Shown: positions 12,382 through 21,048 of the stretch, piece after piece
Layout: each line of letters begins with the position of its first letter
Position numbering within the stretch: the stretch's first letter is position 1
Assembly (NCBI GenBank): GCA_038214255.1
Contig: JBBQRZ010000014.1
Coordinates: 4,843-68,842 of the forward strand
Reading direction: 5' to 3'
Source of the DNA: Candidatus Limnocylindrales bacterium
GTDB lineage: Bacteria > Chloroflexota > Limnocylindria > Limnocylindrales > CSP1-4
Length of the DNA stretch: 64,000 bases
The notes under the pieces: model-generated
Database searches by the model: none
What the model was told of the DNA's origin: nothing
Seen by the model: the letters and a program-made list of their open reading frames with translations, nothing else
Position numbers and translations under genes: made by a program

Positions 12382-13005
12382 ATGAGCCGGCGCCATCACA
12401 ACCGGCCACACCACGGCCACTATCGCCACGAAGGTCCACGTCATGTCGGGCCCGAGCCGCACCCAGCGACGGCGTCGGAGACGGCCGTTCCCGAACACGA
12501 TCGCGCGCATGATGCGCTGACCGCGGCGCCGCCTCGGCCGCCGATGCCGGCGAGCCCTGTGCCGCCGGTGGTTCCGTCGTCGGAGCCGCTTGTCGCCCAG
12601 GGCCCGACATCTGCGCCAATGCCGATGGCGACGCCGATTCCGCCGCCGGTGATGCCATCGCCCGTGATGCCGTCGCCGATGATGCCGTCGCCGAACCGCC
12701 AGATGAACGGCCACGGCGAGCGTCCCAACGGCTGCACCGCGCCCCAGCTGCGGCGTTTCATCAAGAGCCGTCCATACGTGCCCATGCATGAGCTGCGACG
12801 TCGGTTCGGGATCGACGGCGTCGAGGACGACGTGACCCAGGTCGCGCTCGAGGGCACCAACGTCTATGTCGGGCTGCCCGGACGCGAGGGCGCCCTGCTC
12901 GGCGAGCTGTTGCGTGGCGGCGAGATCGGCTACGAGCTCTCGCTCGACCCGCGGTCACCGATCGTCATCGGCGTCTATCCGATGCGGCCCGTCCCGCGCG
13001 CCTGA
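12382..13005 (+). CDS. Hypothetical protein: His/Arg-rich N-terminus, Pro/Met-rich linker, compact C-terminal domain
   Basis: MSRRHHNRPHHGHYRHE...; the C-terminal ~90 aa (QLRRFIKSRPYVPMHELRRRFGI...GYELSLDP...GVYPMR) has normal codon usage. Confidence 0.7.
   Translation: MSRRHHNRPHHGHYRHEGPRHVGPEPHPATASETAVPEHDRAHDALTAAPPRPPMPASPVPPVVPSSEPLVAQGPTSAPMPMATPIPPPVMPSPVMPSPMMPSPNRQMNGHGERPNGCTAPQLRRFIKSRPYVPMHELRRRFGIDGVEDDVTQVALEGTNVYVGLPGREGALLGELLRGGEIGYELSLDPRSPIVIGVYPMRPVPRA
12646..12693 (+). repeat. 15-nt tandem repeat (about 3 copies) encoding P(V/M)MPS
   Basis: ccggtgatgccatcg / cccgtgatgccgtcg / ccgatgatgccgtcg. Confidence 0.8.
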
Positions 13006-13085
13006 CCCCTCCGGGCGGCCGTGCTCGCGCTCCAACGACATCGCATTCCCGCCATCGCCGGGTCGCGTCCGCGTACGATGGGCCC

Positions 13086-13805
13086 ATGGTCGGGAAGAAC
13101 GGCAGCGCGATCACGGCGCGCGCCGCGCTCCGCAGCTGCCGCCTCTTCGCGGACCTCGACGACCCAACGCTCGAGCTCGTCGCCGCGGCGATGCGGGCCC
13201 GGCGATTCCGACGCTCCGAGGTCATCTTCCACGCCGGCGACCCCGGTGATGCCCTGTTCGTGGTGACCGTCGGCCGGGTGAAGATCACCCTGCCGTCCGA
13301 TGAGGGCACGGAGCCGGCGATCCTGACGACGATCGGACCCGGCGGCTTCTTCGGGGAGCTGGCGCTGCTCGACGGCGTGGCCCGGTCCGCCACGGCGATC
13401 GCCCTCGTTGGTGTGGAGGCCCAGGTCCTGCAGCGCGACGCCTTCGAGCGTCTGCTCGACGAGCAGCCACGCCTGCGCCACGTGTTCCTGGTCGCCCTGG
13501 CCGGCGAGATCCGACGACTCACGGGCCAGGTGGAAGACTTCCACTTCATCGATCTGCCGGGTCGGCTCGCCCGTCACCTGTTGCGCTCGCTCGACGGCGG
13601 CGATCGCCCATCCGCCCTCCCGGCCGGCGAGCATCCCCTGCCGTGGCCATATACCCGGTCCGAGCTGGCCGGGATGATCGGTGGATCGCGTCAGTCGGTG
13701 AACCGGCTGCTCGCCGATCTTGTCGGCGAGGGGCTGTTGCGGTTCGAGGGCGACACACTCGTCATCCCCGACGCCGCGCGACTCTCTGCGGCGGTTCGAC
13801 GATGA
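13086..13805 (+). CDS. Crp/Fnr family transcriptional regulator
   Basis: cNMP domain (IFHAGDPGD, FFGELALLDGVARSA) plus HTH (TRSELAGMIGGSRQSVNRLL). Confidence 0.92.
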   Translation: MVGKNGSAITARAALRSCRLFADLDDPTLELVAAAMRARRFRRSEVIFHAGDPGDALFVVTVGRVKITLPSDEGTEPAILTTIGPGGFFGELALLDGVARSATAIALVGVEAQVLQRDAFERLLDEQPRLRHVFLVALAGEIRRLTGQVEDFHFIDLPGRLARHLLRSLDGGDRPSALPAGEHPLPWPYTRSELAGMIGGSRQSVNRLLADLVGEGLLRFEGDTLVIPDAARLSAAVRR

Positions 13806-14617
13806 CGGCGCCACGCCCGCCCGACGGCAGTAGTGCGGCCGCGAGCCTGGCCGCCCTCGCCCGTCGGCTCAGTGCGGCCCTGCAGCTCTCCGAGCCGATG
13901 CGCGACGACCAGCTGTCGGTCGCCGTCGACGTCGCGGTCGTCGTCCTCGATGCCAAGGCGGCCTCGATCGCGCTCCATGACCCGGCCGCCGATCGCCTGC
14001 GCTTCGTCGCGGCTGCTGGGCCGGCGGCAGGCGGGGTCCTCGGGCTCGAGATCGAGAGCGGGGTCGGCATCGCCGGCTACGCGTTCACGACCGGTCAGCC
14101 ACTCGCGGTGGCCGACGTCACGAGCGATCCGCGCTTCGACTCTCGCGTGGCCGAGGCGACGGGCTACGTGCCCCGCTCGATCCTCGCCACGCCCCTCATC
14201 GACGACCTGGGCACCGTCGGCGTGCTCGAGGTGCTCGACCGGAGCGGCGACGGTGGCTTCTCGATGCGCGATCTCGACGTTGCCGGAGCCATTGCTCGAG
14301 GGGCGACGGCGGCGGTGCGGGCCGGTCGCGCCGAGCGCGACGCCGGGGCCCTCCTCCGAAGGGCGCTCGTCGCGACCGCCCGGAGCGTTGACGACGAGAC
14401 GCTCGACGAGGCGGCGATCGAGGAGCTCGTGCGCGACGCCGTCGAGCCGCTCACCGACGATCCGGACGATCCCACGTGGCGCCTCGCCGAACGCATCGCC
14501 CGCCTGCGTACGGTCGATCCCGACAGCGTCGAACTGGCGGTGGAGTGGCTCGATGCGCTGTTACGCCGCGGAAACCGCGGACCAGGCCATGGGGCGCGGG
14601 TCGCGGACGGCCGATGA
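13802..14617 (+). CDS. Stand-alone GAF domain protein
   Basis: GIAGYAFTTGQPLAVADVTSDPRF...TGYVPRSILATP...GVLEVLDR, followed by a helical tail. ATGA overlaps on both sides. Confidence 0.85.
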   Translation: MTAPRPPDGSSAAASLAALARRLSAALQLSEPMRDDQLSVAVDVAVVVLDAKAASIALHDPAADRLRFVAAAGPAAGGVLGLEIESGVGIAGYAFTTGQPLAVADVTSDPRFDSRVAEATGYVPRSILATPLIDDLGTVGVLEVLDRSGDGGFSMRDLDVAGAIARGATAAVRAGRAERDAGALLRRALVATARSVDDETLDEAAIEELVRDAVEPLTDDPDDPTWRLAERIARLRTVDPDSVELAVEWLDALLRRGNRGPGHGARVADGR

Positions 14618-15429
14618 CGACGTCGTTGCCCGCCTGGAGCGAGGCGTTCGCCGGGCCGGCGCGACCCGCCCTCGAACGCGTCCTGCCGCTCGGCCCGATG
14701 GATCGTCGCGCTGTGTTCGGCGACGCCGATGGCACGGGCGTGCTGGTCGTCATCGTCGATTCGGGCGTTGACGGCGAGAATCCCGCCGTGGGCGGCCGGC
14801 TCCGCCAGCGGCTTCGCGTCGAGCTCGACGAGGAGGAGGCTCGCGTCGTTGTCGATCCGGAGGCCTCGGACCTCGTCGGTCACGGGACGGCCTGCGCCGG
14901 CATCGTCCACGCCCTCGCGCCCGCCGCTGAGCTCGTGTCCCTGCGGGTCCTGGGTTCGGACAACCGGGGCAAGGGCCGGGCGGTCGCGGCGGCCGTGGAC
15001 TGGGCTATCGAGGCCGAGGCGCAGGTCGTGAATCTCAGCCTCTCATCGCGCAGCGAGTCGATGTTCGCCACCTTCCACGAGCTGGCCGACCGGGCCTACT
15101 TCGCGAACACGCTGCTCGTGTGCGCCGCGAACAACATCCCGGGACCGTCGTACCCGTCGACGTTCGCGGCCGTGATCTCCGTCGCGGCGCATGACGTCGC
15201 CGATCCGTGGACCTGGTACTACAACCCCTCGCCACCGGTCGAGTTCGGGGCGTATGGCGTCGACGTCGATGTTGCCTGGCGCGACGGCGGACGGATCCGC
15301 GCCACCGGCAACTCGTTCGCCGCGCCGCACATGGCCGGGCTGGCGGCCCTCCTGCGCTCGCGCCATCCCGCCGCGAGCCCGTTCGAGATCAAGGCACTCC
15401 TGGCCGCGACCGCCAACGTTACCGGGTAG
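14614..15429 (+). CDS. Minimal S8 (subtilisin-like) serine peptidase, no signal peptide
   Basis: Catalytic triad in IVDSG, GHGTACAG and GNSFAAP; oxyanion Asn in CAANN; 271 aa. Confidence 0.9.
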   Translation: MTTSLPAWSEAFAGPARPALERVLPLGPMDRRAVFGDADGTGVLVVIVDSGVDGENPAVGGRLRQRLRVELDEEEARVVVDPEASDLVGHGTACAGIVHALAPAAELVSLRVLGSDNRGKGRAVAAAVDWAIEAEAQVVNLSLSSRSESMFATFHELADRAYFANTLLVCAANNIPGPSYPSTFAAVISVAAHDVADPWTWYYNPSPPVEFGAYGVDVDVAWRDGGRIRATGNSFAAPHMAGLAALLRSRHPAASPFEIKALLAATANVTG

Positions 15430-15436
15430 AAACGGA

Positions 15437-15464
15437 AAGACCGCCCGGCGGGGCGGGCGGTCTT
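15437..15464. terminator. Hairpin between the convergent S8 and peptide genes; probable bidirectional terminator
   Basis: AAGACCGCCCG (15437-15447) pairs with CGGGCGGTCTT (15454-15464), flanked by A/T-richer bases. Confidence 0.7.
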
Positions 15465-15493
15465 CCGAGGAGGTGGATCGCTGGCTGTGTGGA

Positions 15494-15709
15494 TCAGCGC
15501 GCGTGACCCTCGACGTCGTCTTCGTCGGACGGAACGGCTTCGCCGCCGTGGCCCGGGCTACGCGGCATGATCCCGTTCGGCGGAGGGGTGATCGGCAAGC
15601 CGTGGCCCTCGACGTCCTCGGTGTCCGTGGGTCCGGCGCCGCCCATCGACCGCTGCTGCTCAGGCTCCACGAGCCCCTCTCGCGGGAGCCGCATGCGCTT
15701 CTTGTCCAT
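15494..15709 (-). CDS. 71-aa acidic/Pro-rich peptide with two DVEGH motifs; candidate precursor peptide
   Basis: GAAGGGGA RBS 7 nt before ATG 15709. DVEGH is encoded at 15602-15616 and 15503-15517. Confidence 0.75.
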   Translation of the reverse strand: MDKKRMRLPREGLVEPEQQRSMGGAGPTDTEDVEGHGLPITPPPNGIMPRSPGHGGEAVPSDEDDVEGHAR

Positions 15710-15808
15710 GGTGCTGTCCCCTTCCCGCGCCATCGCGTCTAGAGCTGGATCTGCCTCGACTCTACTGGGACCGACCCGCCGGTGGCGACCTGCGGTCCGA
15801 CGCCCGCC

Positions 15809-15826
15809 GTGTCATCGCCGAGACAC
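15809..15826. promoter_or_regulatory. Crp/Fnr-family (CooA-type) palindromic site upstream of the peptide gene
   Basis: GTGTCA-TCGCCG-AGACAC, one mismatch from TGTCA-N6-TGACA. A TAGAGT -10-like hexamer lies on the minus strand at 15764-15759. Confidence 0.5.
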
Positions 15827-15829
15827 CCG

Positions 15830-17658
15830 TCACGATACGCCTTCGCTCTGGGGCGCCCGCGGCATAGCCTCCACGGGCGGGCGGGGCGTCCGCAGGTCGC
15901 GCAACGATTCCTGGTCCACGCCCGCCAGCCGCGGCAGGTCGGCGGCCTCGGTCCGCATGAGCCGGCTCGTCAGCGTCGAGAAGACGAGCCGCCGGATCTC
16001 GGGGACGGCCATCGTCGCGCGCAGCGCCTCGGCCGGCACCTCGAGCAGCGTCGCGTCGGTGTCGGCGACCACGTCGGCCGTGCGCGGGCTCCCGGTCAGG
16101 GCCGCGATCTCCCCGAAGAAGTCGCCGGCGCCCATGGTCGAGAGGCTGCGGAAGGTGTCCTCGCTCGGGACGCCGGCCGTGGCCGTGCCATCGAGGATGA
16201 AGAACGCGTTCGACGCGGGGTCACCATGCTCCACGATCCGGGTCCCGGCCGGGACCTCGCGGACCTGGGCCTCGCGGATGAACGCCGAGCGCTGCTCGGT
16301 CGTCAGGCCGGCAAAGGTCCCCAGGCGTGCCGCGAGCAGGTCGAAGTCGGCGAGCGTCGCCGGCCGCACGGGGAAGCCGCCGAGGGCGGGCACGCCCGCC
16401 GCCGCGCGCAGCCGGGCGGTCGCCGCCCGCCACGTCGCAAGTGAGAGGCCGGGCGCGACGAGCACGAACGCGGCCGACACGAACAGGAGCGACGAGGCGG
16501 CCACGATCATGAGCCGGATCGGCAGGATGTCGGCGAGGCCGGCGCCGGCCATGCCGAACAGGAAGATGACGTCGCGCATGACGTAGAAGGCCGAGACGAC
16601 CCGGCCGCGCATCTCGCGCGGCGTGTTCCGTTGCAACAAGACGGAGCGGGCGACCGACGCGGGCGAATTGAAGAAGCCGAGATCGTCACCAGGACGATCG
16701 CGAAGGAGATCCCCGGCGACGCCGCGTAGAGGATCCCGGAGACCCCCATCCCGCACATCGCGATGAAGATCCATGCCGGTTCCGGCAGCCGGCTCGAGAA
16801 GCGGGCCATGAAGAACGAACCGATGACGAAGCCGATCGAGGTCAGGCCTTCCTGGAGCCCGTATTGGAACTCGGTGGCGCCGAGCACCTTGATCGCGAAC
16901 GGCAGCAGCAGCACGTTCCACAGCCCGAACGCGAAGAACATGAACGAGCCGACGATGAACAGCGAGCGCAGGATCGGGGTGCCGAACAGCGTCCCGAGGC
17001 CGGATCGCAGGTTCTCGACGACGACGGCGACCGAGGCGTGGTCCTCGGGCGTCGGCAGGGCGATCTTGCCGATCAGCCCGATGCAAACGGCCGAGAAGAC
17101 GAACGTCAGCGCGTCGATGACGAAGGCGAGGCGCAGGTCGATGCTCGCGAGGAAGCCGGCTCCGGCGAACCCGATTGCGGTCGAGCCGAACGCGGCGATC
17201 GAGAGGAACGAATTGGCCGCGGCGAGCTCCTCGTCGCTCGCGAGCTCCGGGATGATGCTGTCGTGGGCCGGGTCGAAGAACTGCCGGACGCCGGCGTTGA
17301 TGAGGATGAGGGCGTACAGCCCGACGACGGCGATCTGCTCGATCCCGATGACGATCGCGATGAGGGACACCGCGACCGCCTGGACCAGGCAGGTGGCGAT
17401 CATGATCTTCTTGCGGTCGTGCCGGTCCACGAATACCCCGGCGAGCAGGCCCACGATCAGGCTCGGGACGGCAGTGGCCATGAGCGTCAGCCCGACCGCT
17501 AGGGCCGACCCGGTCTGGCGATAGACGAAGATGCCTGCGGCAAGATCGGTCAGCGCTGATCCCGCCGTCGAGACAAGCTGGGCAAGCCAGAGGAGGGAGA
17601 AGTCTCGGCGGTGGAAGACCGCGAACATCGATGGGGCAGGCGCGACCGCTGCGGTCAT
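15830..17658 (-). CDS. MFS transporter fused to a C-terminal cyclic-nucleotide-binding domain; 1-nt frameshift at ~16677 in this sequence
   Basis: ORF 16507..17658 gives the MFS N-part (DFSLLWLAQLVS, GVFVDRHDRKK). Adding one base at CC 16677-16678 joins it to the 15830 frame (GFFNSP...LLQRNTPREMRGRV, then GDFFGEIAALTGSPRTADV). Restored length 609 aa. GAGGAG RBS. Confidence 0.85.
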
Positions 17659-17699
17659 CGGGCTCCTCAGGGCGACAGGGGAGCGAGGCTGGCCGGAGT

Positions 17700-18257
17700 C
17701 TAGCCCGCGCGTCTGCCGACCGCGCGACCTTCGCGCAGCAGCAGAGCGGCCTTGAGGGCGAGGCGCTCCTCACCGTCGGCCCACCCGTCGCTGCCGTATC
17801 CGCCGAGCGTGCCGTCGCCGGCGATGACCCGGTGGCACGGGATGAGCAGCGTGATCGGATTGCGCCCGAGCGCTCCCCCGACGGCGCGGGCCGCCCGCGG
17901 CGCTCCGATCCGTCGCGCGATCCCGCCATAGCTCGCGGTCTCCCCCCAACCGAGCTCGCGGACCGCGCCGAGGACGCGCTGGTCCCAGGCCGGCCGGTCG
18001 GCCAGGTCCACCTCGATCGCGGAGGAATCGGCCGGCTCGCCGTGGAGCAGCGCCTCGAGGACCGGGAGCGCCCCCTCGAGCCGAGCCGCGGCGGCCCCTT
18101 GGTCCATCACCCTGCCTGCCAGCCGCGCTCGGGTGCGCTGGAGGAATGCCGCCTCGGTCGTCAACCACTCCGCGGCGACGATCCCGCGTTCGGTGGCGGC
18201 CACGTGATACGGCCCGAATGGACCGGCCAGCGTGCGCGCCGCGACATCGTCATCCAT
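17700..18257 (-). CDS. ogt: Methylated-DNA--protein-cysteine methyltransferase
   Basis: [26 protein letters not shown] active site, GTLGGY. Confidence 0.9.
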
Positions 18258-18303
18258 GCCGGTCAAGTGTGCATCGGCCCCGGTCCGAACGGGCGCGGCT
18301 GAT

Positions 18304-18320
18304 ATACTCCCTAGGAGTAT
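18304..18320. promoter_or_regulatory. CsoR-like operator overlapping the copA -10 box and start codon
   Basis: ATACTCC-CTA-GGAGTAT, perfect 7-bp arms resembling the ATACC...GGTAT CsoR boxes. TATACT at 18303-18308, ATG at 18319. Confidence 0.65.
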
Positions 18321-21048
18321 GCCAACCAACACGACCGACACGACCGAAACCCGCCAACCCACGGCCGAGCTGCTGCTGCCCATCGAGGGCATGACCTGCG
18401 CCTCGTGCGTTAACCGGATCGAGCGATTTCTCCGCAAGACCCCGGGGGTCGAGGACGCGATTGTCAACCTCGCCACCGAGATGGCGACGATCCGCTACGT
18501 CCCGGACCTCGCGGACCGGGCCGATCTCGTCGGGGCGGTGGAGTCGGCCGGCTACGACGTCCGGCCGGAGCCAGACCGGATCGGCGGCGCCCCGCCGCTC
18601 AGCCTGGTCGAGGAGCTCGCCTCCGAGGACATCGCTCGCGATCGCGAGGCCCGGGCGCTCCTGCGTGAGGCCGTCGCCTCGATCGCCATCGCGCTCGCGA
18701 TCATGGTCGCGATGTTCATTCCCCAGACGCGCGTGCCGATGGAGACGATCAACTGGCTGGCCCTCGTCCCTGCGACCTTCGTCCAGGTCTGGGCGGGGCG
18801 CCGCTTCTATCGCGCCGCCTGGCGCGCGGCCCGCCACGGAACGACGAACATGGACACCCTCGTGGCCGTCGGCACTTCGGCAGCCTGGCTGTACAGCGTC
18901 GGCGTGACGCTGGTCCCCGCGGCCATCCACGAAGCCGGGCTCCATCCCGAGACCTACTTCGATTCGTCCACGATCATCATCGGGCTCGTCCTGCTCGGGC
19001 GGTGGCTCGAGGCGCGGGCCAAGGGCCGCACGACCGGGGCGATCCGCCGGCTCGTCGGCCTCGCGGCGACGTCGGCCCGCCGGGTCGTCGACGGACGGGA
19101 CGAGGACGTCCCGCTCGAGTCGATCATCGTCGGGGACCTCGTGCGCGTGCGGCCCGGGGACAAGGTGCCGGTCGACGGGATCGTCCTCGAGGGCGCCTCG
19201 GCCGTCGACGAATCGATGCTGACCGGCGAGCCCATCCCGGTCGAGAAGTCGATCGGCGACCGCGTCATCGGCGCCACGATCAACCGAACCGGCTCGTTCG
19301 TCATGCGCACGACGGCGGTCGGCCGCGACACCGCGCTGGCGCGGATCGTCGATCTCGTCGGGCGCGCCCAGGGCAGCAAGGCGCCGATCCAGCGGCTCGC
19401 CGACCGCATCGCCGGGGTCTTCGTCCCGATCGTGCTCGTCGTCGCGGCGACGACATTCCTCATCTGGTTACTGTTCGGTCCCGAGCCGCGCTTCACGCTC
19501 GCCCTGACCTCGTTCATCGCCGTCGTGGTGATCGCCTGCCCGTGTGCGATGGGCCTGGCGACGCCGACGGCGATCATGGTCGCGACGGGCCGCGGCGCCG
19601 AAGCCGGCATCCTGTTCAAAGGCGGCGAAGCGCTCGAGATCGCGCACCGCGTGGATGCGGTCGTCTTCGACAAGACCGGCACGCTGACGCTCGGGCGGCC
19701 GACGCTCGTCGACATCGCGGCGGCGCCGGGCTTCACCACGGTCGAAGTCCTTGATCTCGCGGCAAGTGTCGAACGCGCCAGCGAGCACCCGCTCGGCACC
19801 GCGATCCTGGCCCGGGCTAATCGCGATGAGCTCGGGTTCCGCCAGGTCGACGAATTCTCGGCCGTGATCGGGGGCGGGGTCGAGGCGGTAGTCGCGGGAG
19901 CCGGTGGCCCTTGGCGCGTCGTCGTCGGCAACCGGCGCCTGCTCGCGGTGCGGGGCGTGGACCTCACGCCCCTGGACCCCGCGATCGAGGGCGCCGGGTC
20001 GGCGGGGCGAACGCTGGCCTTCGTCGCGATCGACGGGCGGGCGGCGGGATTGCTCGCGATCAGCGATCCGGTCAAGGCCGAGTCGAGTGCGGCGGTCCGC
20101 GAGCTCAGGGCGGCCGGGATCGAGGTCTGGCTCGTCACGGGCGACGCCCGTGTCACGGCGGAGGCCGTCGCGAAGCAGGTCGGGATCCCGTCCCACCAGG
20201 TCCTCGCCGAGGTCCTGCCCGAGGGCAAGTCGGCCATCGTCGAGCGGCTCCAGGCTCGCGGTCGAACCGTGGCCGTCGTCGGTGACGGCATCAACGACGC
20301 GCCGGCCCTCGCCCGAGCCGATCTCGGCATCGCGATCGGGACGGGCGCCGACGTCGCGGTCGAGGCAGCCGATGTCACGCTCGTCGGTGGCGATCCGCGC
20401 GGCGTCCCGGCGGCGATCGGCCTGTCGCGGGCGACGCTCTCGATCATCCGCCAGAACCTCGTCTGGGCGTTCGGGTACAACGTCGTGCTGATCCCGGTCG
20501 CGATGGGCGTGCTCGTCCCGACGTTCGGGATCGCGCTCAACCCGGCCATGGCAGCGGGCGCGATGGCGCTGTCGTCGGTGTCCGTCGTCGCCAATTCCCT
20601 GCGCCTGCGGTCCTACGACGCGCGGCCGGACGCGGCTCACCGTGTCGCCCGACGAGGCGTGTTCGGGCATCTCCGCGAGGCCTGGTTCCTCGGCGCGATC
20701 GCCGTCGCCTCGCTCGGGGCGGCCGGGGGCGTGCTGGCGGCCGACCGCGCGATCGATGCGGGCGCGGACCACCACGCGGTGGTGGCTCGCAACCTCCGCT
20801 TCGCGCCGGCCGACCTCCACGTGCGCGCCGGCGACATCGTCGTCGTCCAGTTCAGCAACGAGGACCCGACGTTCCACGACTGGCGCGTCGTCGGGCTCGC
20901 GAACGTGGATGCTGGGGCGCGACCGGGACAGACCCAACGGGTCCGGTTCCGCGCCGACACGCCAGGCACCTACCGGATCGAGTGCTCGGTCCCGGGCCAC
21001 GCCGAGTCCGGGATGACCGGCACGCTCGTCGTGGACCCGCCAGACTGA
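18319..21048 (+). CDS. copA: Cu(I)-translocating P1B-type ATPase with N-terminal HMA domain and fused C-terminal cupredoxin domain
   Basis: [33 protein letters not shown] and MALSS motifs. After these come an extra TM and a cupredoxin (HDW...[11 protein letters not shown]). Confidence 0.93.

What the first reader, a model, noticed from the sequence alone, without database searches (positions are those of the whole stretch)
15494..15709. 71-aa peptide with a duplicated acidic DVEGH motif framing a 28-residue Pro/Gly-rich cassette
Seen: MDKKRMRLPREGLVEPEQQRSMGGAGPTDTE-DVEGH-GLPITPPPNGIMPRSPGHGGEAVPSDED-DVEGH-AR. The motifs are 33 aa (99 nt) apart, each follows an acidic run, and there is a good RBS. 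The copies differ at the Gly codon (GGC vs GGT), consistent with selection on the protein. Inference: leader / recognition site / core / recognition site layout like a multi-cassette precursor, with cleavage at DVEGH. Alternatively the motifs are His/acid metal-binding sites or a protease-inhibitor bait.
Basis: partly seen in the sequence, partly recalled or inferred. Interest (0 to 1): 0.8.

Follow-up and report, generated by a model that had tools for sequence, protein, structure and literature searches.

The report
Repeat-motif peptide tied to a subtilase module
The 71-residue peptide is real and belongs to a large, undescribed family of small disordered proteins that always sit beside the same cyclic-nucleotide-linked regulator, protease and transporter genes, which suggests a regulated peptide-processing system.

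Summary
The ORF (15494-15709, minus strand) and its two DVEGH motifs are confirmed. It is a single-copy, conserved, disordered small protein with its own ribosome-binding site, terminator and promoter region.

The motif is not private to this organism. Small proteins with 2-12 [DE]3-DVEGH repeats and lineage-specific spacers occur in genomes labelled Chloroflexota, Actinomycetota and Dormibacterota. None matches a Pfam or NCBIfam family.

In 80 loci found by the motif alone:
- 58 hold an orthologous prodomain-less S8 subtilase within 2 kb.
- 65 hold a GAF protein and 65 a Crp-type regulator.
- At least 22 hold an MFS transporter; those scanned against Pfam carry a C-terminal cNMP-binding domain.
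- Gene order is shuffled among these loci.

A 16-bp palindrome, TGTC-N8-GACA, lies upstream of the peptide gene across phyla (window 15809-15826).

Starting from the S8 side, 47 of 80 metagenome loci hold such a peptide. One S8 clade carries variants (EVEGH, DVAAH, QVKAH, DVKGY) behind a conserved helical leader.

Best reading (about 0.45): a Crp/cNMP-controlled precursor cut at V-x-G/A-H by the GAF-coupled cytoplasmic subtilase, possibly with export by the MFS. Cleavage, export and expression are inferred, not shown.

Against a strict two-site cassette: the second DVEGH is intact in only 10 of 26 close relatives, and the "cassette" is itself conserved within the genus.

The parts
13086..13805 (+). 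Crp-family regulator (cNMP_binding + HTH_Crp_2), first gene of the Crp-GAF-S8 operon
   Evidence: Pfam E 3.6e-22 and 3.8e-13. A homologue lies within 2 kb of the DVEGH gene in 65 of 80 motif-found loci.
13799..14617 (+). GAF-domain protein (about 272 aa); its start overlaps the Crp stop
   Evidence: Pfam GAF_2 E 7.5e-13 and translation. Found in 65 of 80 loci. Adjacent to and on the same strand as S8 in 57 of the 58 loci with S8. Alignment A4.
14614..15429 (+). S8 subtilase, 271 aa, with no signal peptide and no prodomain; its ATG overlaps the GAF stop (ATGA)
   Evidence: Pfam Peptidase_S8 E 5.5e-29. Overlap read. D49, H90, S234 and N174 are invariant, and the N-terminal LPAWS motif is conserved, in 42 sequences. 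Model pLDDT 89; best PDB matches are subtilisin BPN' variants.
15441..15456 (-). Terminator-like hairpin with a T-rich tail after the peptide gene, between the convergent S8 and peptide genes
   Evidence: 1 found against 0.1 expected in shuffles.
15494..15709 (-). Peptide gene, 71 aa: leader-like residues 1-31, DVEGH at 32-36, Pro/Gly-rich conserved segment 37-64 with PGHGGE, DVEGH at 65-69, then AR
   Evidence: Predicted disordered (pLDDT 62.7, pTM 0.14, no secondary structure).
15602..15616 (-). First DVEGH motif (invariant in relatives); proposed protease recognition site
   Evidence: Invariant in 26 of 26 sequences. Motif profile from 231 contexts.
15503..15517 (-). Second DVEGH motif (dispensable in relatives)
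   Evidence: Intact in 10 of 26 sequences (hand count).
15717..15726 (-). Ribosome-binding site GGGAAGGGGA
   Evidence: Read. GGAAGG or GGAGG is conserved at the same distance in relatives.
15759..15764 (-). -10-like hexamer TAGAGT, conserved as TAnAGT in the genus
   Evidence: Alignment A6 of 16 upstream regions, invariant T117. The simple sigma-70 scan found no full promoter, so this is an inference.
15809..15826 (.). Crp/FNR-type palindromic operator GTGTC-N8-GACAC (core TGTC-N8-GACA), about 100 nt upstream of the peptide ATG
   Evidence: It is the only match in the 64-kb window. TGT...GAC is invariant in 16 genus loci. Across 78 cross-phylum loci, 34 sites lie upstream of the peptide gene and 3 elsewhere.
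15830..17658 (-). MFS (MFS_1/MFS_3) transporter with a C-terminal cNMP-binding domain, directly upstream of the peptide gene on the same strand; broken here by a 1-nt frameshift near 16677
   Evidence: Pfam on the two frames. In frame in relatives. The same architecture occurs in 11 of 13 large neighbours of other DVEGH genes scanned against Pfam. An independent contig carries the extra base.

Best explanation
The 71-aa protein is one member of a large, unnamed family of small, intrinsically disordered proteins built from a short N-terminal leader and one to twelve copies of an acidic run ending in V-E-G-H. The family is one part of a conserved five-part module. The other four parts are a Crp-type cyclic-nucleotide-binding regulator, a GAF protein translationally coupled to a cytoplasmic prodomain-less subtilase, and an MFS transporter with a C-terminal cyclic-nucleotide-binding domain.

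Proposed mechanism:
1. The Crp-type regulator binds the TGTC-N8-GACA palindrome upstream of the peptide gene and sets its transcription in response to a cyclic nucleotide.
2. The subtilase, controlled by its GAF partner, recognises V-x-G/A-H (Val at P4, His at P1) and cuts after His. In multi-repeat relatives this would release the segments between motifs. In the window's protein it would release the conserved Pro/Gly-rich segment starting at G37, with optional trimming at the second site.
3. The product may leave the cell through the cNMP-gated MFS.

Shown here: the gene, the family, the neighbourhood, the operator and the intact catalytic residues. Inferred: operator binding by this Crp, cleavage and its position, the role of GAF, and export.
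For: Neighbourhood from the motif side. A DNA pattern for two DVEGH copies alone found at least 123 stretches in 185,579 species genomes, and 80 were fetched. My hand count of their record titles gives 43 Chloroflexota, 35 Actinomycetota and 2 Dormibacterota. Within +-2 kb, 58 of 80 hold an S8 that is 42-89% identical to the window's, 65 of 80 a GAF protein, 65 of 80 a Crp-type gene and 22 of 80 an MFS. Four of 80 hold none of these. Pfam confirmed these architectures on 41 sampled neighbours.

Gene order. It is shuffled into more than 30 arrangements. GAF and S8 stay adjacent and co-directional, and the peptide gene stays beside them. It lies upstream on the same strand in 29 loci and convergent with S8, as in the window, in 15 (my count).

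S8 just beyond the flank. Five loci that lacked S8 within 2 kb all have an S8-subfamily gene at E <= 1e-114, four at coordinates that fit the same contig just beyond the flank.

Neighbourhood from the S8 side. 47 of 80 metagenome loci hold such a peptide, 18 of 24 with adequate flanks and 11 of 11 where S8 identity is 60% or more.

Operator.
- Invariant in 16 genus loci.
- The single match in the window.
- Of 5 perfect sites in the 2.8-Mb genome, it is the only one clearly outside an ORF.
- In 78 cross-phylum loci, 34 sites with at most 1 mismatch lie 80-350 nt upstream of the first motif against 3 in the other 285,834 positions.

Motif.
Spacers are unrelated between lineages and 6-41 aa long.
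- Variants in one S8 clade keep only V..[GA]H, or V.GY in L246, behind a conserved helical leader. Subtilases read mainly P4 and P1 (established knowledge, recalled), and Tyr is a classic subtilisin P1 residue.
- L246 has leader, DVKGY, then a single hydrophobic Trp/Pro-rich core, the layout of a classical precursor peptide.

Protease and peptide. The S8 catalytic D, H and S and the oxyanion N are invariant in 42 of 42 sequences. The N-terminus shows no hydrophobic signal-like stretch, and the 271 aa have no room for a prodomain. The peptide is predicted disordered, so it would be accessible to a protease.
Against: - No experiment or RNA data: no RNA run holds the locus.
- No modification enzymes are in the cluster, so this is not a classical RiPP cluster.
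- Within the genus the segment between the motifs is as conserved as the motif, and the second DVEGH is intact in only 10 of 26 relatives. The two-site cassette does not hold for this branch.
- The module can exist without the peptide. 13 of 121 genus genomes have the S8 but no strong peptide hit. In G010 no DVEGH-like motif lies within +-8 kb of Crp-GAF-S8. None of 5 such genomes has a DDVEGH-coding 18-mer. So the protease must have other work, or an unrecognised substrate.
- G017 keeps the MFS-cNMP gene without Crp, GAF, S8 or peptide.
- The MFS link is the weakest: 22 of 80 loci within 2 kb.
- In the window the MFS gene is frameshifted.
- One variant (DEAVAH, L217) puts Val at P3 rather than P4.
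- The S1-pocket residue aligned with BPN' G166 is Ser and does not by itself predict a His preference.
- The loci come largely from metagenome-assembled genomes of a few projects, so they are not independent samples. The motif search was biased to high-GC codons and 60-90-nt spacing.
Confidence: 0.45

Rival explanations
1. Storage or stress protein removed on cue. The DVEGH proteins act intact, inside the cell, as disordered hydrophilic protectants or reserve proteins made under cyclic-nucleotide control. The GAF-coupled subtilase is their dedicated disposal enzyme, as the germination protease GPR is for small acid-soluble spore proteins. The MFS is only a co-regulated neighbour.
For: The proteins are highly charged, disordered and repetitive. 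A conserved short site sits in otherwise free sequence, as with GPR sites in SASPs (recalled). Carriers are soil and sediment lineages (record titles; run list). The operator and the Crp link fit starvation signalling. The MFS link is weaker than the S8 link.
Against: Concerted, near-identical repeats within a protein but unrelated spacers between lineages fit released units better than a bulk protectant. L246 has a single hydrophobic Trp/Pro-rich core behind a leader, which is not hydrophilin-like. The leaders are conserved. The MFS-cNMP gene still recurs beside the peptide in several phyla.
Confidence: 0.2
2. Pseudo-substrate or bait. The V-E-G-H sites bind the active-site cleft of the subtilase and hold it inactive, or titrate it, until a cyclic-nucleotide signal acts through GAF. 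Multi-repeat forms would hold several protease molecules.
For: The S8 has no prodomain or inhibitor domain of its own. The peptide and S8 co-occur tightly: 57 of 59 genus genomes with the peptide also have the S8. Motif type tracks S8 clade.
Against: The Crp-GAF-S8 module exists without any DVEGH protein in some genomes. Up to 12 repeats and hypervariable spacers are unusual for an inhibitor. Leader-plus-core layouts such as L246 look like substrates.
Confidence: 0.12
3. Metal-binding peptide. Asp, Glu and His of each DVEGH chelate a metal, and the protein buffers or chaperones it, possibly linked to the nearby P-type ATPase that carries HMA and cupredoxin-like domains.
For: Each motif carries D, E and H. 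Some relatives have His-rich spacers (L079, L109). A heavy-metal ATPase lies 2.5 kb away at 18232-21048.
Against: Variant motifs drop the acidic ligands but keep Val and His (QVKAH, DVAAH, EAVAH) or replace His with Tyr (DVKGY). Val, a non-ligand, is 93% conserved. The ATPase was seen beside the gene in 14 of the 18 genus loci, but it did not appear among the recurrent neighbour clusters of the cross-phylum loci.
Confidence: 0.05

Closest known systems
Multi-core precursor peptides cut by subtilases: cyanobactin PatE with PatA/PatG, and fungal or yeast Kex2-processed repeats such as alpha-factor and ustiloxin-type precursors (recalled, no call)
   Same: A small precursor with a leader and repeated units. 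Each unit is bounded by an invariant short recognition sequence, while the units differ between species. An S8 protease is encoded beside the precursor.
   Different: There are no heterocyclase, macrocyclase or other tailoring genes. The protease is a minimal cytoplasmic subtilase coupled to a GAF protein. Control is by a Crp-type regulator, and the transporter is a cNMP-binding MFS rather than an ABC exporter. The site is V-x-G/A-H, not dibasic or the Pat recognition sequences.
Small acid-soluble spore proteins and their germination protease GPR (recalled)
   Same: Small abundant proteins that carry a conserved short cleavage site for a dedicated protease that acts on a physiological cue.
   Different: GPR is not a subtilase. 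SASPs fold on DNA and are not tandem repeats. There is no Crp, GAF or MFS module. The carriers here are not endospore formers, according to their taxon labels.
Intracellular subtilisin proteases (ISPs) of Bacillus (PDB 7y6m and 7xr8 are listed)
   Same: A cytoplasmic S8 without a signal peptide or a classical prodomain, with a short conserved N-terminal extension.
   Different: The extension motif here is LPAWSE[AP]F, not the LIPY/F motif of ISPs (recalled). The best sequence and fold matches are subtilisin BPN' variants at 28-30% identity, and ISPs score lower. Coupling to a GAF gene is not described for ISPs, to my knowledge.
Crp/FNR-family operators: CRP TGTGA-N6-TCACA and CooA-type TGTC...GACA sites (recalled)
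   Same: A 16-bp palindrome with outer TGT/ACA triplets at the same spacing, next to a gene for a Crp-family protein.
   Different: The fourth and fifth positions differ from the CRP consensus. Binding by this regulator and its ligand is untested.

Membership tests
RiPP / multi-core precursor peptide cluster | Precursor with a leader and core(s) bounded by conserved recognition sequences | tested here: met
   Motif invariant and spacers free. Conserved leaders. Single-core example L246.
RiPP / multi-core precursor peptide cluster | Dedicated protease encoded beside the precursor | tested here: met
   S8 within 2 kb in 58 of 80 loci, and 47 of 80 from the S8 side.
RiPP / multi-core precursor peptide cluster | Post-translational modification enzymes in the cluster | tested here: not met
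   In the window the neighbours are Crp, GAF, S8, MFS-cNMP, a methyltransferase-like DNA-binding protein, M24 peptidase and a P-type ATPase. The recurrent neighbours elsewhere are the same regulators, protease and transporter.
RiPP / multi-core precursor peptide cluster | Demonstrated processed product | not testable with these tools
   Needs mass spectrometry.
Pup / UBact-type C-terminal GG[EQ] protein modifiers | GG[EQ] at the very C-terminus | tested here: not met
   In the window GHGGE is internal (residues 53-57) and 14 residues follow it. Some relatives do end in ...RGE.
Pup / UBact-type C-terminal GG[EQ] protein modifiers | PafA/Dop-type ligase nearby | tested here: not met
   No such family appears among the Pfam hits of window neighbours or the recurrent neighbours. 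A genome-wide search was not made.
Peptidase family S8 (for the neighbouring protease) | Asp-His-Ser triad in subtilase order, oxyanion Asn, and a subtilisin fold | tested here: met
   D49, H90, S234 and N174 invariant in 42 of 42 sequences. Pfam E 5.5e-29. Foldseek matches subtilisin BPN' variants with TM 0.63-0.71.
Intracellular subtilisin proteases (ISP) | N-terminal LIPY/F autoinhibitory extension | tested here: not met
   The conserved N-terminal motif is LPAWSE[AP]F. The ISP motif itself is recalled, not taken from a call.
Crp/FNR regulon member | 16-bp palindrome of Crp/FNR type in the promoter region | tested here: met
Crp/FNR regulon member | Binding by the regulator and ligand dependence | not testable with these tools
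   Needs EMSA, DAP-seq or reporter assays.
Known anti-phage defence systems (Pycsar and others in PADLOC) | Match to system-specific protein models | tested here: not met
   Only domain-level hits were found: the cNMP-binding domain to PycTIR/PycC models and S8 to a generic subtilase model. The peptide, GAF and MFS proteins had none.
Any curated protein family (Pfam-A, NCBIfam) for the peptide | Score at or above the curated cut-off | tested here: not met
   The window peptide gave 0 families, even at E <= 1. No hit reached its cut-off for 17 relatives and 5 variant proteins.

The most novel reading that the evidence does not exclude
This is a bacterial counterpart of prohormone processing. 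A cyclic-nucleotide signal switches on a polyprotein-like precursor through a Crp-type operator. It activates a GAF-gated cytoplasmic subtilase that cuts the precursor at V-x-G/A-H into lineage-specific unmodified peptides. It also opens a cNMP-gated MFS exporter. The result would be a cell-to-cell peptide signal, or another extracellular peptide, used by soil Chloroflexota, Actinomycetota and Dormibacterota. No such pathway has been described.
Probability: 0.25. Interest if true: 0.92.

Novelty: new variant of a known kind. Interest (0 to 1): 0.82.

Why it matters
If the reading holds, it defines a widespread and so far unnamed peptide system in three phyla that dominate soils and are hard to culture. 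The system would have four parts:
- a family of repeat-motif precursors;
- a dedicated minimal subtilase whose activity would be gated by a GAF partner;
- a defined Crp-type operator;
- a transporter carrying its own cyclic-nucleotide sensor.

It would give a concrete output for cyclic-nucleotide signalling in Chloroflexota and Actinomycetota, where many predicted cNMP-binding proteins, including cNMP-binding MFS proteins, have no known role. It would also give a protease with a short, portable recognition site (V-E-G-H) and a new class of genome-mining targets for unmodified peptides.

Even if the peptides act inside the cell, the module is a clean, testable regulon: one operator, one target gene and one protease.

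Tried and rejected
Steps that could not be run or gave nothing:
- Complex prediction (S8 + GAF + peptide). It was never accepted because the queue was full, so there is no result.
- Expression. No RNA holder is listed for 13000-17800.
- The Atlas look-up gave only unnamed Chloroflexota clusters, scoring 0.86 or less.

Ideas considered and dropped:
- Pup-like modifier. The GGE is internal and no ligase is nearby.
- Copper link through the P-type ATPase. It is seen only in genus-level synteny.
- M24 peptidase as a system part. It occurs in 10 of 80 loci, all labelled Chloroflexota, so lineage synteny is likelier.
- Known defence system. PADLOC gave domain-level hits only.
- Specificity from the S1 pocket. 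The aligned residue is Ser and the 156-165 loop is shortened, so no inference is possible.
- Programmed frameshift between GAF and S8. Rejected, because the two ORFs overlap by ATGA.
- Other perfect operator sites in the genome as a regulon. Four exist and all appear to lie inside ORFs; one, in L174, may be near a gene start.

Literature. Full-text searches for DVEGH, DDVEGH, EDVEGH, DTEGH, DVEAH and VEGHG found nothing relevant in the listings. Two keyword searches on cNMP-binding MFS, subtilase, GAF, Crp and precursor peptides also found nothing relevant. No paper was opened.
Full report
**1. Observation**

ATG at 15709 runs to the stop at 15494-15496 and gives the quoted 71 residues. DVEGH occupies residues 32-36 and 65-69. 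The copies are 33 residues apart, each follows an acidic run, and their Gly codons are GGC and GGT. A purine-rich GGGAAGGGGA lies 8-17 nt before the ATG. A hairpin with a T-rich tail follows the stop.

Codon-position GC is 0.76/0.51/0.86, which looks coding in this 71% GC DNA. The window lies in a 2.8-Mb, 55-contig assembly that is 89% complete, and the gene is single-copy there.

**2. Close relatives**

A word-indexed protein search found 15 small proteins (39-125 aa window). One is named only "hypothetical protein [Chloroflexota bacterium]".

In a draw of 121 genomes from the same genus, counting the window's own genome, 63 have a match. Of these, 59 have E <= 1.4e-13 and 4 are weak. None of 24 genomes from the sister family has one. 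A profile of the genus-type peptide found only 3 of 401 genomes across the phylum, the window's own genome included, and the other two were marginal.

The 26-sequence alignment A2 shows these points:
- P9, D32-V-E-G-H36, P44 and G55-G56 are invariant.
- LPKEGLVEPE, GLPxTAPP and PGHGGE are conserved.
- By my count of that alignment, an intact second DVEGH is present in only 10 of 26.

So in this branch the "cassette" is conserved and the second site is dispensable. Median pairwise dN/dS is 0.5 over 136 pairs. AlphaFold2 with this alignment gives no secondary structure, pLDDT 62.7 and pTM 0.14. The protein is predicted to be disordered.

**3. Local genes**

Pfam and reading of the overlaps give two transcription units.

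Plus strand:
- Crp-type regulator, 13086-13805.
- GAF protein, 13799-14617.
- S8 subtilase, 14614-15429, whose ATG overlaps the GAF stop as ATGA.

Minus strand, convergent with S8:
- MFS with a C-terminal cNMP-binding domain, 15830-17658.
- The peptide gene.

The S8 has 271 residues, no signal-like N-terminus and no room for a prodomain. All 18 genus loci fetched share the order Crp, GAF, S8, then peptide and MFS-cNMP on the other strand.

Comparing the tables by hand for the 121 genus genomes gives:

| Peptide | S8 | Genomes |
|---|---|---|
| yes | yes | 57 |
| yes | no | 2 (one at a contig end) |
| no | yes | 13 |
| no | no | 49 |

Twelve of the 13 S8-only genomes carry a more distant S8 (58-64% identity). 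Two natural variants are informative.
- G010 has Crp-GAF-S8 but no DVEGH-like motif within +-8 kb. None of 5 such genomes holds a DDVEGH-coding 18-mer.
- G017 keeps the MFS-cNMP gene but lacks Crp, GAF, S8 and the peptide.

**4. The motif is a family signature**

A profile search of 1.84 billion representative proteins found 98 clusters at E <= 0.001. Many have 2-7 matched stretches.

Eighty were fetched with +-2 kb. By my count of record titles, 43 are labelled Chloroflexota, 35 Actinomycetota and 2 Dormibacterota.

The encoded proteins have these features:
- 2-12 repeats.
- In 231 distinct contexts the motif reads [DE][DE][DE]-D-V-E-G-H. D and H were required by the search; among the residues it allowed, V is 93%, E 99% and G 98%.
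- Spacers are 6-41 aa (median 12). They are near-identical within a protein and unrelated between lineages.
- In 31 of 77 proteins the tail after the last His is 6 aa or shorter.

No Pfam or NCBIfam model reaches its cut-off for the peptide, 17 relatives or 5 variant proteins.

**5. Conserved neighbourhood across phyla**

I clustered the flanking ORFs of the 80 loci and scanned 41 of them against Pfam. The same partners recur:
- MFS_1/MFS_3 with a C-terminal cNMP_binding domain, in 11 of 13 large neighbours tested. The other two are patatin + cNMP and cNMP + GAF.
- Crp-type regulators.
- GAF proteins.
- S8 peptidases of about 280 aa.

tblastn with the window's proteins gives these counts within +-2 kb:

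| Partner | Loci of 80 |
|---|---|
| S8 (42-89% identity) | 58 |
| GAF | 65 |
| Crp | 65 |
| MFS | 22 |
| M24 | 10 |
| None of these | 4 |

Five loci without S8 in the flank all have an S8-subfamily gene at E <= 1e-114. Four of these lie at coordinates that fit the same contig just outside the flank.

Gene order differs in more than 30 ways, yet GAF and S8 stay adjacent and co-directional. The order is GAF then S8 in most loci and S8 then GAF in one actinobacterial clade. By my count, the peptide gene lies upstream on the same strand in 29 loci and convergent with S8 in 15. Neighbours retained through this much rearrangement and across phyla argue for a functional link, not inherited synteny.

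**6. The test from the S8 side**

Searching metagenome contigs with the S8 alignment returned 80 loci with 49-76% identity. A D[VT]EGH ORF or a V-x-[GA]-H repeat ORF is present in 47 of 80. The count is 18 of 24 where at least 1.5 kb and 1 kb flank the S8, and 11 of 11 of those with identity of 60% or more.

The more distant S8 genes are accompanied by variant proteins downstream of the same palindrome:
- EVEGH repeats (L216, L218, L242).
- DDVAAH (L244).
- QVKAH (L231).
- DEAVAH (L217).
- D[TV]SGH (L211).
- DVQGH/DVEAH (L247, L255).
- L246: a leader, then DVKGY, then one hydrophobic Trp/Pro-rich segment.

Six of these share a helical leader with R20, T22, L23, E27, L30, L31 and D32 invariant. 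In a quick maximum-likelihood tree of 120 S8 sequences, the EVEGH, DVAAH, QVKAH and EAVAH neighbours all fall in one clade (SH-aLRT 99) that has no D[VT]EGH neighbour. Relatives share labels, so this is descriptive only.

What survives all the variants is a hydrophobic Val three residues before a His (or Tyr), with a small residue in between. That is the pattern expected if Val sits at P4 and His/Tyr at P1 of a subtilase, since S4 and S1 dominate subtilase specificity (recalled knowledge). It is not what a D/E/H metal site would conserve.

**7. The protease**

In 42 aligned S8 sequences D49, H90, S234 and N174 are invariant, and an N-terminal LPAWSE[AP]F motif is conserved. The model is confident (pLDDT 89, pTM 0.91). 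Its best sequence and fold matches are subtilisin BPN' variants at 28-30% identity.

**8. An operator**

Aligning 16 genus upstream regions shows an invariant palindrome, GTGTC-N8-GACAC (core TGTC-N8-GACA), directly after the MFS stop and about 100 nt before the peptide ATG. A conserved TAnAGT follows it. In the window it lies at 15809-15826.
- It is the only match in the 64 kb.
- The genome has 5 perfect sites, and the other four appear to lie inside ORFs.
- In 78 cross-phylum loci, sites with at most 1 mismatch number 34 in the interval 80-350 nt upstream of the first motif (20,110 positions) against 3 in the other 285,834 positions. That covers 34 of 78 loci, or 59 of 78 with at most 2 mismatches.

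The outer TGT/ACA triplets and their spacing are those of Crp/FNR-family sites (recalled). A Crp-family gene sits in the same cluster. I infer that it controls the peptide gene.

**9. Reading**

The simplest account of all these facts has four steps:
1. The peptide gene is a cyclic-nucleotide/Crp-controlled target.
2. Its product is a disordered precursor.
3. Its V-E-G-H sites are read and cut by the GAF-coupled cytoplasmic subtilase.
4. The cNMP-binding MFS may export the product.

I put about 0.45 on this. I put about 0.2 on an intracellular storage or stress protein with the same protease as its disposal enzyme, about 0.12 on a pseudo-substrate or bait role, and about 0.05 on metal binding.

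Against the favoured reading:
- There are no RNA or protein data.
- There are no tailoring enzymes.
- Some genomes have the module without the peptide.
- The MFS link is the weakest.
- The window's MFS gene has a 1-nt frameshift near 16677.
- One variant has Val at P3.
- The loci are not independent samples, and the motif search was biased towards high-GC codons.

**10. Comparison and novelty**

The system works most like multi-core precursor peptides processed by subtilases (cyanobactins, Kex2-type repeat precursors). It fails the membership test for RiPP clusters on tailoring enzymes.

It is not a Pup-type modifier, an ISP in the strict sense, or a listed defence system.

Full-text searches for the motif strings and for the gene combination found nothing relevant. 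Only the listings were read. Subscription journals are not covered.

Noticed in passing
window 16676-16678 (within the MFS-cNMP gene 15830-17658, minus strand): There is a one-base deletion in a G run relative to four relatives, which splits the MFS and cNMP-binding parts into two frames. An independent soil contig (X2, 95-99% alike) carries the extra base, while the probable source run matches the window. This is either a strain mutation or an assembly error.
   Followed up: yes
window 18232-21048 (+): A P-type ATPase carries an N-terminal HMA domain and an unusual C-terminal cupredoxin-like domain (Cupredoxin_1, Cu-oxidase_2 and SoxE hits). It was seen near the module in 14 of the 18 genus loci.
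   Followed up: no
window 14869-14886 (S8 residues 86-91) versus peptide residues 32-37: The catalytic-His loop of the subtilase reads D-L-V-G-H-G, and the peptide motif reads D-V-E-G-H-G. This may be coincidence, or a hint at the origin of the motif.
   Followed up: no
L045:8838-9338 (-) and L048:7237-8025 (+): A conserved small protein, whose C-terminal part carries an RRFIKSRPYVPMHELRRRFG-type motif, takes the place next to S8 or MFS in genus genomes that lack the peptide. Its function is unknown.
   Followed up: no
L059, L096, L097, L106, L126 and proteins P0055, P0058, P0064, P0089, P0095, P0114: Many multi-repeat relatives end exactly in ...[RKSG]GE. This resembles the window's internal PGHGGE and the N-terminal P-G-x-G-G-[DE] motifs of others, so it may be a second short linear motif of the family. 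Its meaning is unknown.
   Followed up: partly
L097/L098, L106/L107, L057/L102; G499:C1:1024799-1025452: Some genomes carry two DVEGH-type genes a few hundred bases to 3 kb apart, flanking the same module.
   Followed up: no
L246:4918-5199 (-): This is a single-core member: a conserved leader, DVKGY, then a 40-residue Trp/Pro/Val-rich hydrophobic segment. It is the most bacteriocin-like member seen.
   Followed up: partly
L054:1791-4238 (+) and L063:2262-4028 (-): An adenylate/guanylate cyclase with AAA_16 and zinc-ribbon domains, and a cNMP-binding patatin-like phospholipase, lie next to DVEGH genes in two actinobacterial loci. These are further cyclic-nucleotide parts in the same neighbourhood.
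   Followed up: no
G505:C4:660582-665519: In one genus genome the S8 and the peptide gene are about 4 kb apart instead of about 100 nt, which suggests an insertion between them.
   Followed up: no
L079 and L109: The spacers between DVEGH motifs are His-rich (KHHHGR and HTHHGAPKH types) in two loci labelled Chloroflexota.
   Followed up: no
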